The position numbers were made by a program, and so were the translations under genes. From assembly GCF_024502345.1 (NCBI RefSeq), contig NZ_JALDNN010000001.1: a DNA stretch of 64,000 nucleotides; one strand, given 5' to 3'. The notes beneath the pieces were generated by a model, which was not told the origin of the DNA, did no database searches, and saw only the letters and a list, made by a program, of their open reading frames with translations. The DNA comes from Escherichia coli (GTDB taxonomy: Bacteria > Pseudomonadota > Gammaproteobacteria > Enterobacterales > Enterobacteriaceae). Below are positions 7,796 through 8,074 of this stretch, one piece after another (position 1 is the stretch's first letter; each line of letters begins with the position of its first letter).

Positions 7796-7963
7796 ATGAA
7801 CCAAGCAATTCAGATGTTAGCCTCTTACCCGCCATCCGGCAAGGAGAAAGGCTATGAAGCGCAACCCTCTGGTGGTGTGTCTGCTCATTATCTGCATTAC
7901 GATTCTGGCATTCACACTCCTGACCCGACAAACGCTCTACGAACTGCGGTTCCGGGACGGTGA
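7796..7963 (+). CDS. mokB: Type I toxin-antitoxin regulatory ORF mokB, overlapping hokB in another frame
   Basis: 55-codon ORF that begins upstream of hokB and overlaps it, the typical mok/hok arrangement. Confidence 0.5.
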   Translation: MNQAIQMLASYPPSGKEKGYEAQPSGGVSAHYLHYDSGIHTPDPTNALRTAVPGR

Positions 7964-8003
7964 TAAGGAGGTTGCTGCGCTCATGGCCTGCACGTCCAGG
8001 TAA
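7854..8003 (+). CDS. hokB: Hok-family type I toxin (small membrane peptide)
   Basis: 49-aa product MKRNPLVVCLLIICITILAFTLLTRQTLYELRFRDGDKEVAALMACTSR; too short for the ORF track; followed by a GC hairpin at 8010..8030. Confidence 0.85.
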   Translation: MKRNPLVVCLLIICITILAFTLLTRQTLYELRFRDGDKEVAALMACTSR

Positions 8004-8074
8004 GGGCAAGCGCGGGGATTTTCCCCGCGCATCTGACTAGCAGATTCATTTTCTCATGGCACCCCTTTTACACT

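What the first reader, a model, noticed from the sequence alone, without database searches (positions are those of the whole stretch)
7796..8032. hokB/mokB type I toxin locus missed by the ORF track
The 49-aa Hok toxin and the overlapping 55-codon mok frame are present on the plus strand, followed by a GC-rich hairpin. The listed 76-aa minus-strand ORF 7779..8009 is antisense to them and is probably spurious. The sokB antisense RNA should lie opposite the mokB 5' region, roughly 7780..7850 on the minus strand, but I could not delimit it from sequence alone.
Basis: partly seen in the sequence, partly recalled or inferred. Interest (0 to 1): 0.35.

Follow-up and report, generated by a model that had tools for sequence, protein, structure and literature searches.

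The report
Known E. coli hokB/mokB/sokB toxin locus

Summary
Confirmed, and already known. Window 7456-8074 is the E. coli trg-ydcA intergenic region, gapless against K-12 MG1655 with 6 mismatches in 619 bases.

- **Coding frames.** The 49-aa ORF 7854..8003 (+) is HokB (Pfam HOK_GEF, 82.5 bits; RefSeq "toxin HokB"). The 55-codon frame 7796..7963 (+) is mokB.
- **sokB.** The curated K-12 sokB maps to 7806->7750 on the minus strand, not 7780..7850.
- **Extent.** The mRNA runs from about 7708 to about 8069, beyond the flagged interval.
- **Regulatory elements.** All R1 hok/sok elements have counterparts: tac 7708-7719, ucb 7758-7765, mokB SD 7785-7788, dcb 7820-7824, fbi 8052-8064.
- **Folding.** The full-length RNA folds with tac:fbi and SD:ucb pairing (z = -6.2). 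Without the 3' tail it switches to tac:ucb and SD:dcb and exposes the loop opposite SokB's 5' tail.
- **GC hairpin.** The hairpin at 8010-8030 has no T-run. It is most likely the protective 3' stem-loop of the processed mRNA, not a terminator.
- **76-aa antisense ORF.** It has no family match and is not annotated in the two RefSeq records read in full.

The locus occurs in 5410 of 5426 complete E. coli genomes. Interest is low.

The parts
7696..7701 (+). Inferred -10 hexamer (TAGGAT) of the hokB/mokB promoter, 6 nt upstream of the predicted +1. No convincing -35, so the promoter is weak.
   Evidence: Nine related hok loci carry TATAAT, TATGAT, TAGAAT or TAAGAT at the same distance from the GG start. 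The generic sigma-70 scan found nothing at its 9/12 threshold. This part is inferred.
7708..8069 (+). Full-length mokB-hokB mRNA, about 360 nt. The 5' end is set by position 1 of the Rfam model. The 3' end is inferred from fbi plus the U-run.
   Evidence: Rfam RF01794 match 7708-7859, model positions 1-157. MFE -147.1 kcal/mol, z = -6.23, 0 of 100 shuffles as stable. In relatives fbi ends 350-397 nt from the 5' end and is followed by U-rich sequence.
7708..7719 (+). tac (translational activator element), GGGUGCCUGAGA. It pairs with fbi in the full-length RNA and with ucb in the 3'-truncated RNA.
   Evidence: Pair tables. Covariation with fbi across 8 distinct hok loci.
7712..7735 (+). Predicted metastable 5' hairpin of the nascent transcript: tac nt 5-13 paired with nt 20-28.
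   Evidence: Folds of nt 1-30 to 1-45. The corresponding feature of R1 hok is described in PMC9841398.
7758..7765 (+). ucb / anti-SD box (AGGCCCCG). It pairs with the mokB SD in the full-length fold and with tac in the truncated fold.
   Evidence: The same helix appears in the Rfam consensus structure.
7785..7788 (+). mokB Shine-Dalgarno sequence (GAGG), 7 nt before the ATG.
   Evidence: Sequence. Paired to ucb in the full-length fold and to dcb in the truncated fold.
7796..7963 (+). mokB reading frame (55 codons), overlapping hokB out of frame.
   Evidence: K-12 mokB b1420 maps here exactly. No Pfam family.
7820..7824 (+). dcb (GCCUC). It pairs with the mokB SD in the truncated fold.
7854..8003 (+). 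hokB, a 49-aa membrane toxin. Cys9, Cys14 and Cys46 are kept. It differs from K-12 HokB by H3R and T19A.
   Evidence: Pfam HOK_GEF 82.5 bits. RefSeq 'type I toxin-antitoxin system toxin HokB'. Alignment to K-12.
7938..7941 (+). TACG motif holding the published TadA A-to-I editing site. The A at 7939 is the middle base of the Tyr29 codon TAC, which editing converts to Cys.
   Evidence: K-12 A1491986 (PMC12214031) maps to window 7939 through the gapless alignment. Related Hok proteins have Cys at the aligned position.
8010..8030 (+). GC-rich stem-loop (9 bp) with no T-run after it. It is most likely the 3' terminal stem-loop that protects the processed (truncated) hokB mRNA.
   Evidence: -19.5 kcal/mol. 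The terminator scan lists no plus-strand site. The role of the equivalent stem-loop in R1 is described in PMC9841398. The function here is inferred.
8052..8064 (+). fbi (fold-back inhibitory element), UCUCAUGGCACCC, followed by CUUUU. It pairs with tac with one bulged U.
   Evidence: Covariation.
7750..7806 (-). sokB antisense RNA, 57 nt (5' end at 7806, 3' end at 7750). It has a 12-nt single-stranded 5' tail, then a 14-bp hairpin, then UUCGUCUUU.
   Evidence: K-12 sokB b4429 (1492119..1492175) transferred through the gapless alignment. Fold -22.2 kcal/mol, z = -4.5.
7759..7790 (-). Intrinsic terminator hairpin of SokB.
   Evidence: Terminator-like site reported by the scan: 14 pairs, 7 of them GC, tail TTCGTCTTTC.
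7814..7842 (-). sokB promoter: -35 TTGCCG (7842..7837), 17-nt spacer, -10 TAACAT (7819..7814; K-12 has TAAGAT), start at G7806.
   Evidence: Minus-strand sequence. Hexamers sit at homologous positions in all 10 aligned hok/sok loci, including the R1 type. At 8/12 matches it is below the scan threshold. This part is inferred.

Best explanation
The region is the chromosomal hokB/mokB/sokB type I toxin-antitoxin module of E. coli, intact in this strain.

How it most likely works:
1. A weak promoter (-10 at 7696-7701) makes a mokB-hokB mRNA of about 360 nt (7708 to about 8069).
2. During transcription the 5' end is held in a metastable hairpin.
3. In the finished RNA the 5' tac element pairs with the 3' fbi element, the mokB SD is held by the ucb box, and the mokB start region is paired to the 3' UTR. 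In this form the RNA is stable, untranslatable and blind to SokB.
4. Slow 3' trimming removes fbi and stops at the GC stem-loop 8010-8030.
5. tac then pairs with ucb, the SD pairs with dcb, and a hairpin forms that presents CCAAGCAA in its loop.
6. The constitutively made, unstable 57-nt SokB RNA (7806->7750, minus strand) uses its single-stranded 5' tail to contact that loop. It covers the mokB SD and AUG, blocks mokB translation and, through translational coupling, hokB translation. The duplex is then degraded.
7. When SokB falls short or hokB transcription rises (Obg and (p)ppGpp), HokB inserts in the inner membrane, forms pores, collapses the membrane potential and leaks ATP, giving dormancy or persistence.

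What was shown here: identity, coordinates, and predicted structures with covariation. What is taken from published work on K-12 hokB: toxin action, induction, editing, SokB detection. What is inferred by homology to plasmid R1 hok/sok: 3' processing, RNase III cleavage and mok-hok coupling.
For: **Identity**
- Pfam HOK_GEF 82.5 bits for the 49-aa ORF.
- 619-base gapless alignment to K-12 with 6 mismatches.
- K-12 annotation of hokB, mokB and sokB at the homologous positions. RefSeq hokB in 100%-identical genomes.
- The locus is present in 5410 of 5426 complete E. coli genomes.

**RNA leader**
- Rfam RF01794 scores 111.5 bits against a gathering score of 59, full length 1-157.
- The same model matches 9 related loci on the hok-sense strand.

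**Conformational switch**
- The full-length MFE has tac:fbi, ucb:SD and mokAUG:3'UTR pairing, z = -6.23.
- The truncated RNA has tac:ucb and SD:dcb pairing, and the SokB target loop is free.
- Nascent folds form a 5' hairpin.

**tac:fbi covariation**
- 89% of cells are paired, with 2 compensatory pairs (C-G<->U-A and U-A<->C-G).
- Slid controls give 28-60% paired and no compensatory pairs.

**SokB**
- Terminator-like hairpin plus T-run on the minus strand.
- Fold with a free 5' tail, z = -4.5.
- Promoter hexamers at positions homologous to R1-type sok in all loci.

**Literature**
- R1 mechanism: PMC9841398.
- SokB RNA measured by RNA-seq: PMC5389530.
- sokB knock-down gives a growth defect: bioRxiv 10.1101/2020.03.04.975888.
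- HokB pores and ATP leakage: PMC6094483.
- Obg and (p)ppGpp induction: PMC5349102.
Against: - No transcript data exist for this strain, so both RNA ends are inferred.
- The generic sigma-70 scan found no promoter on either strand at its threshold.
- The tac duplex energy is better than shuffled downstream sequence only modestly in the window (3 of 200 shuffles as good) and not at all in several relatives (up to 166 of 200). The tac:fbi argument therefore rests on consistent position and on two compensatory pairs from essentially two clades, which is thin.
- MFE folds of 330-360 nt RNAs are not reliable in detail.
- RefSeq still labels K-12 sokB 'putative'.
- From memory (Pedersen and Gerdes 1999, not readable here), K-12 hokB did not score in post-segregational killing assays. 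R1-style processing has not, to my knowledge, been shown directly for hokB.
- This strain has a change in the sokB -10 hexamer (TAACAT against TAAGAT) whose effect is unknown.
Confidence: 0.93

Rival explanations
1. The locus is a decayed, non-functional relic. The sequence is recognisably hokB/sokB, but regulation or toxicity has been lost, as reported for several chromosomal hok loci of K-12.
For: K-12 hokA, hokC and hokE are described as inactivated by insertion elements, and one further locus by rearrangement (PMC12214031). In other E. coli genomes hokB itself is hit: IS150 sits inside the leader/sokB in strain 746, a trg-hokB deletion is present in JA0257, and about 900 of 5410 genomes cover less than 80% of the locus. 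RefSeq calls sokB 'putative'.
Against: In this window both ORFs, both promoters' hexamers, the terminator and every pairing element are intact, and no IS is present. K-12 hokB, which differs at 6 of 619 positions, is toxic, forms pores and is needed for Obg-mediated persistence. A sokB knock-down is deleterious.
Confidence: 0.05
2. The 76-aa minus-strand ORF 7779..8009 is the real gene, and the plus-strand small ORFs are incidental.
For: It is the longest ORF in the interval, and it is also open in K-12.
Against: It has no Pfam match and starts with TTG. It is absent from the two RefSeq feature tables read in full, K-12 and the 100%-identical strain. The opposite strand encodes a protein with a strong family match and an RNA leader with a strong covariance-model match. 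In nine divergent hok loci the longest antisense open stretch ranges from 49 to 94 codons with no consistent pattern. That check is crude, because frames were not put in register. The protein databases were not searched with this ORF.
Confidence: 0.01
3. The GC-rich hairpin 8010-8030 is the transcription terminator of hokB, so the mRNA ends at about 8032 and there is no fbi element.
For: The hairpin is strong (-19.5 kcal/mol) and lies 6 nt after the stop codon.
Against: No T-run follows it (the next bases are AUCUGACUAG), and the terminator scan lists no plus-strand site. A 13-nt complement of the extreme 5' end lies 21 nt further on, followed by CUUUU. Relatives have the same arrangement with compensatory changes. 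In R1 the equivalent stem-loop is the 3' end of the processed RNA.
Confidence: 0.06

Closest known systems
hokB/mokB/sokB of E. coli K-12 MG1655 (b4428, b1420, b4429)
   Same: It lies in the same chromosomal position, between trg and ydcA, with yncP, rydC, cybB and gapC alongside. The 619-base alignment is gapless, and all features fall at the same offsets.
   Different: There are six substitutions. Two change HokB (H3R, T19A) and two change MokB codons 3 and 7. One of those also lies in SokB (7803), and the other lies in the sokB -10 hexamer (7816, TAACAT against TAAGAT). One is in the trg-proximal spacer and one in the 3' UTR/yncP (8033).
hok/sok of plasmid R1 (and R1-type loci on IncF plasmids)
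   Same: Same architecture: a Hok/Gef toxin, an overlapping upstream frame with a GAGG SD, and an antisense RNA whose promoter lies inside that frame. The antisense RNA has a 5' tail plus a terminator hairpin. tac/fbi, tac/ucb and SD/dcb pairings, a 3' stem-loop before fbi, and a -10 hexamer 6 nt before a GG start are also shared.
   Different: The hokB mRNA is shorter (about 360 nt against about 395 nt), with a shorter first hairpin. The tac and fbi sequences differ at two compensating positions, and the hokB helix has a bulged U. HokB has Tyr at the position where R1-type Hok has Cys, and that Cys is supplied by RNA editing. The locus is chromosomal and is linked to persistence rather than plasmid maintenance.
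Rfam RF01794 'sok antitoxin (CssrC)'
   Same: Full-length match of 111.5 bits at 7708-7859.
   Different: The match is on the hok-sense strand and ends at the hokB start codon. As built, the model describes the hok mRNA leader, which contains the complement of Sok, and not the antisense RNA itself. Taking the hit at face value would place 'sok' on the wrong strand with the wrong ends.

Membership tests
[quoted passage not shown] | Small hydrophobic toxin of the Hok/Gef protein family | tested here: met
   Pfam PF01848 scores 82.5 bits against a cut-off of 22, covering residues 6-46. RefSeq product name HokB.
[quoted passage not shown] | Upstream overlapping reading frame (mok) with its own SD, out of frame with hok | tested here: met
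   55-codon ORF 7796-7963 with GAGG 7 nt upstream. It equals K-12 mokB. ATG-initiated out-of-frame overlapping ORFs occur at the same place in 6 of 9 relatives. Two have only a TTG start (L008, L010), and in one (L011) none passed my filter. Translational coupling itself was not tested.
[quoted passage not shown] | cis-encoded antisense RNA complementary to the mok translation initiation region, with a free 5' tail and a terminator hairpin | tested here: met
   Sequence features: promoter hexamers, a 12-nt tail, and a 14-bp hairpin plus T-run at 7806->7750. The position equals the curated K-12 sokB. The transcript itself cannot be observed with these tools. It has been measured by RNA-seq in K-12 (PMC5389530).
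[quoted passage not shown] | Conserved hok mRNA leader structure | tested here: met
   Rfam RF01794 scores 111.5 bits against a gathering score of 59, model positions 1-157.
[quoted passage not shown] | Long-range 5'-3' pairing (tac/fbi) closing the full-length mRNA | tested here: met
   Predicted in the MFE fold. The partner sits at a consistent distance, before a U-run, in 9 of 10 loci; the exception carries a group II intron there. Two compensatory pairs, 89% of cells paired, and slid controls without compensation. This is in silico only and the sample is small.
[quoted passage not shown] | Alternative pairing after 3' truncation (tac/ucb, SD/dcb) that exposes the antisense target | tested here: met
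   Fold of 7708-8033. The tac/ucb helix is part of the Rfam consensus. Prediction only.
[quoted passage not shown] | Slow 3' exonucleolytic processing of the mRNA and RNase III cleavage of the mRNA-Sok duplex | not testable with these tools
   This needs Northern blots or RACE in wild-type and RNase mutants. It is known for R1 (PMC9841398).
[quoted passage not shown] | Toxicity of the Hok peptide through membrane damage | not testable with these tools
   Shown for K-12 HokB (PMC6094483). The allele here differs at 2 of 49 residues and keeps C9, C14 and C46.

The most novel reading that the evidence does not exclude
The convergent minus-strand transcript of ydcA (8248..8075) may run on through yncP (8049..7981). 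No terminator-like site separates them. It would then be antisense to the fbi element (8052-8064) and to the protective 3' stem-loop (8010-8030) of hokB mRNA. Such read-through RNA could act as a second, 3'-end antisense input that unlocks or destabilises the closed hokB mRNA independently of SokB. I found nothing that tests this. It is a structural possibility only.
Probability: 0.04. Interest if true: 0.5.

Novelty: already known. Interest (0 to 1): 0.08.

Why it matters
For the scan this is a true positive of an ordinary kind. A length-filtered ORF track misses a 49-aa toxin, a 55-codon leader frame and a 57-nt antisense RNA, and lists a probably spurious 76-aa antisense ORF instead.

Biologically the locus is one of the better studied chromosomal type I toxin-antitoxin modules (persistence, pore formation, RNA editing), so nothing new is learned about the system.

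Three results are practically useful:
- exact coordinates for every RNA element in this window;
- the warning that the Rfam 'sok' model reports the hok-sense strand;
- the observation that the locus is intact here, whereas a sizeable minority of E. coli genomes carry IS150 or deletions in it.

Tried and rejected
1. **Rfam 'sok' hit as the antisense RNA.** Rejected. The hit is on the plus strand, spans 152 nt and ends at the hokB ATG, so it is the mRNA leader.
2. **End-anchored tac/fbi mini-alignment.** MAFFT shifted the register. This showed that R1-type RNAs start one base later in the Rfam register. The end-anchored reading would have claimed 5 compensatory pairs out of 7. In the homologous register only 2 of 8 are compensatory, and I report the lower figure.
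3. **Duplex energy of the first 20 nt against the downstream 250 nt, compared with shuffles.** This discriminates poorly (3 of 200 for the window, up to 166 of 200 for relatives). I used it only to locate the partners.
4. **Generic sigma-70 scan.** It found no promoter on either strand. Both promoters are sub-consensus and were placed by homology instead.
5. **tblastn of HokB against plasmids.** It found only 5 records, three of them chromosome-sized (4.8-4.9 Mb) sequences filed as plasmids. The blastn 'distant' search and the R1 Hok protein query gave the relatives that were needed.
6. **GC hairpin as terminator.** Rejected; see the rival explanations.
7. **Literature search for YncP.** Only irrelevant hits.
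8. **Large protein and metagenome searches, structure prediction.** Not run. The identity was settled by cheaper means.

Full report
**1. Observation**

- a 49-aa ATG ORF at 7854..8003 (+);
- a 55-aa ATG ORF at 7796..7963 (+) that overlaps it out of frame;
- a 76-aa TTG ORF at 7779..8009 (-).

The GC-rich hairpin after the stop codon is a 9-bp stem, 8010-8018/8022-8030, with a UUU loop. It folds at -19.5 kcal/mol, z = -3.6.

**2. Identity**

- The 49-aa product matches Pfam HOK_GEF at 82.5 bits against a cut-off of 22. The mok frame and the 76-aa antisense ORF match nothing.
- Megablast of 7456-8074 finds the stretch in 5416 of 5426 complete E. coli genomes. Nine records are 100% identical, and all are annotated 'hokB: type I toxin-antitoxin system toxin HokB' plus yncP.
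- The neighbours are ydcI, trg, hokB, yncP, ydcA, cybB, gapC and aldA, as in K-12.
- The alignment to K-12 MG1655 is gapless with 6 mismatches in 619 bases. K-12 coordinates therefore transfer by window = 1499925 - K-12 coordinate.

The transferred K-12 features are:

| K-12 feature | Window coordinates | Strand |
|---|---|---|
| hokB (b4428) | 7854-8003 | + |
| mokB (b1420) | 7796-7963 | + |
| sokB (b4429, 1492119..1492175) | 7806->7750 | - |
| yncP (b4774) | 8049->7981 | - |

**3. The antisense RNA**

- The 57-nt stretch 7806->7750 folds into a 12-nt single-stranded 5' tail and a 14-bp hairpin followed by UUCGUCUUU (-22.2 kcal/mol, z = -4.5).
- The independent terminator scan reports that same hairpin on the minus strand, at 7790..7759.
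- Upstream on the minus strand lie TTGCCG (7842..7837), a 17-nt spacer, TAACAT (7819..7814) and 7 nt to the G at 7806.
- I aligned the minus strand of ten hok loci: R1-type IncF, plasmids from Edwardsiella, Cronobacter, Citrobacter, Enterobacter and Klebsiella, a Klebsiella chromosomal locus, and hokE. The -35, the conserved GGTAAGAGGC spacer, the -10 (TAnnnT), the tail and the hairpin plus T-run are all in register.
- The promoter matches only 8 of 12 consensus positions, so the generic scan did not list it.
The rest of that interval is promoter.
- SokB covers the mokB SD (7785-7788), the ATG and the first 11 nt of mokB. It then runs upstream across the ucb box.

**4. The mRNA**

Rfam RF01794 ('sok') matches 7708-7859 on the plus strand over its full length, at 111.5 bits against a gathering score of 59. 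It matches the hok-sense strand in all nine relatives as well. The model is therefore of the hok mRNA leader, and its position 1 gives the likely +1 at 7708. A -10-like hexamer ends 6 nt before the GG start in every locus: TATAAT or TATGAT in plasmids, TAGAAT and TAAGAT in chromosomal paralogues, and TAGGAT here at 7696-7701.

I compared the predicted folds with the published R1 model (PMC9841398).

- **Full-length RNA, 7708-8069** (-147.1 kcal/mol, z = -6.23):
  - tac (nt 1-12) pairs with UCUCAUGGCACCC at 8052-8064 (fbi), with one bulged U.
  - The mokB SD pairs with AGGCCCCG at 7758-7765 (ucb).
  - The mokB AUG region pairs with the 3' UTR.
- **RNA cut after the GC stem-loop, 7708-8033:**
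  - tac pairs with ucb.
  - The SD pairs with GCCUC at 7820-7824 (dcb).
  - A hairpin forms with CCAAGCAA (7801-7808) in its loop, complementary to the first bases of SokB.
- **Nascent RNAs of 30-45 nt:** tac is held in a local hairpin.

Each element of the R1 scheme thus has a counterpart. It has no T-run, and fbi lies beyond it.

**5. Is tac/fbi more than a prediction?**

- In 9 of 10 loci the best complement of the 5' end lies 350-397 nt downstream, directly before U-rich sequence.
- The exception is an Enterobacter plasmid (L007), which has a group II intron at that place.
- In the Rfam register, 8 distinct sequences give 89% paired cells and two positions with changes on both sides (C-G<->U-A and U-A<->C-G).
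- Sliding the partner by 1-3 columns gives 28-60% paired and no compensatory change.
- My first, end-anchored alignment would have overstated this.
- The sample is small and comes essentially from two clades, and duplex energies alone are not significant. I rate this as supportive rather than conclusive.

**6. Function, from the literature on K-12 hokB**

- HokB is a single-span inner-membrane peptide with C9, C14 and C46. It forms pores, collapses the membrane potential, leaks ATP and induces persistence (PMC6094483).
- hokB mRNA rises with Obg in a (p)ppGpp-dependent way, and Obg-mediated persistence needs hokB (PMC5349102).
- SokB RNA was quantified by RNA-seq and is 3-fold higher in a pcnB mutant (PMC5389530).
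- CRISPRi knock-down of sokB gives a growth defect that increases with nutrient limitation (bioRxiv 10.1101/2020.03.04.975888).
- TadA edits A1491986, recoding Tyr29 to Cys and raising toxicity (PMC12214031). That base is window 7939, inside an intact TACG. Related Hok proteins carry Cys at the aligned position.
- 3' processing, RNase III cleavage and mok-hok coupling are inferred from R1. I know of no direct demonstration for hokB.

**7. The 76-aa antisense ORF**

- It has no family match and starts with TTG.
- It is absent from the two RefSeq feature tables read in full, K-12 and the 100%-identical strain.
- It lies opposite a strongly supported protein and RNA.
- It is also open in K-12, which says little at 99% identity.
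- Antisense open stretches in divergent loci show no consistent pattern. This is a crude check.
- The 22-aa yncP on the same strand is an annotated gene.

**8. Variation**

Compared with K-12, this allele differs as follows:
- HokB carries H3R and T19A.
- MokB codons 3 and 7 change.
- There is one change within SokB (7803).
- There is one change in the sokB -10 hexamer (7816).

Across E. coli, about 900 of 5410 genomes cover less than 80% of the locus. In strain 746 an IS150 sits in the leader at about window 7781, inside sokB. Strain JA0257 has a deletion fusing trg to the middle of hok. The window's copy has none of these.

**9. Verdict**

This is a correct detection of a known, curated locus. 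Novelty is 'already known' and interest is low (0.08). The most novel reading I cannot exclude is that read-through from the convergent ydcA/yncP transcript acts as a second antisense input on the fbi end of hokB mRNA. I give that about 4%.

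Noticed in passing
window 7981-8049 (-): The 22-aa ORF yncP (MNLLVRCAGKIPALALTWTCRP) is annotated in K-12 (b4774) and RefSeq. It is antisense to the hokB stop codon and the 3' stem-loop, and starts 3 nt from fbi. It lies directly downstream of ydcA on the same strand with no terminator-like site between them.
   Followed up: partly
window 8419-8482 (+): RydC small RNA, Rfam RF00505, 92.5 bits (gathering 48), next to cybB as in K-12.
   Followed up: no
window 43731-43848 (-), 38800-38920 (-), 47226-47321 (+): Three further known sRNAs pass Rfam gathering scores in the window: FnrS (134.8 bits), MicC (125.3 bits) and McaS (117.6 bits).
   Followed up: no
window 7708-7859 (+); L003-L011: Rfam RF01794, named 'sok antitoxin', matches the hok-sense strand in all 10 loci and ends at the hok start codon. 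The model describes the hok mRNA leader, not the antisense RNA, so automated annotation from it mis-strands sok.
   Followed up: yes
L012 1605-2974 (E. coli strain 746, NZ_CP023353.1): An IS150 transposase is inserted in the hokB leader at the equivalent of window ~7781, inside sokB. Several genomes in the spread listing break at the same query position. About 900 of 5410 genomes cover less than 80% of the locus.
   Followed up: partly
L013 1047-1602 (E. coli JA0257, NZ_CP072786.1): A deletion joins a truncated trg to the middle of the hok reading frame, removing the hokB leader, sokB and the N-terminus of Hok.
   Followed up: no
L007 741-888 (Enterobacter plasmid pJBIWA005_2): A group II intron (Rfam RF02012, 104.3 bits) starts 17 nt after an extended 59-aa hok ORF, where the fbi element would be. 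No fbi partner was found in that locus.
   Followed up: no
window 9212-10213 (+): A 333-aa ORF sits at the gapC position. K-12 annotates gapC as a pseudogene, whereas the 100%-identical strain has an intact type I glyceraldehyde-3-phosphate dehydrogenase gene there.
   Followed up: partly
window 7816 and 7803: Relative to K-12, the sokB -10 hexamer reads TAACAT instead of TAAGAT, and one base inside SokB differs. The effect on the antitoxin level is unknown.
   Followed up: no
L010 603-759 and 1107-1261 (E. coli CP088669.1): Two hokE-type leaders and hok genes lie in tandem about 500 bases apart.
   Followed up: no
PLSDB records H21, H22, H24, H63 (4.8-5.4 Mb): Several 'plasmid' records in the plasmid collection are chromosome-sized. 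They account for the only close hokB hits there.
   Followed up: no
L011 (R1-type IncFII plasmid): My screen for an out-of-frame upstream ORF overlapping hok found none in this R1-type variant, although the Hok protein is 100% identical to my R1 query. A 1-nt length difference upstream may put the mok start in frame with hok. I did not check this.
   Followed up: no
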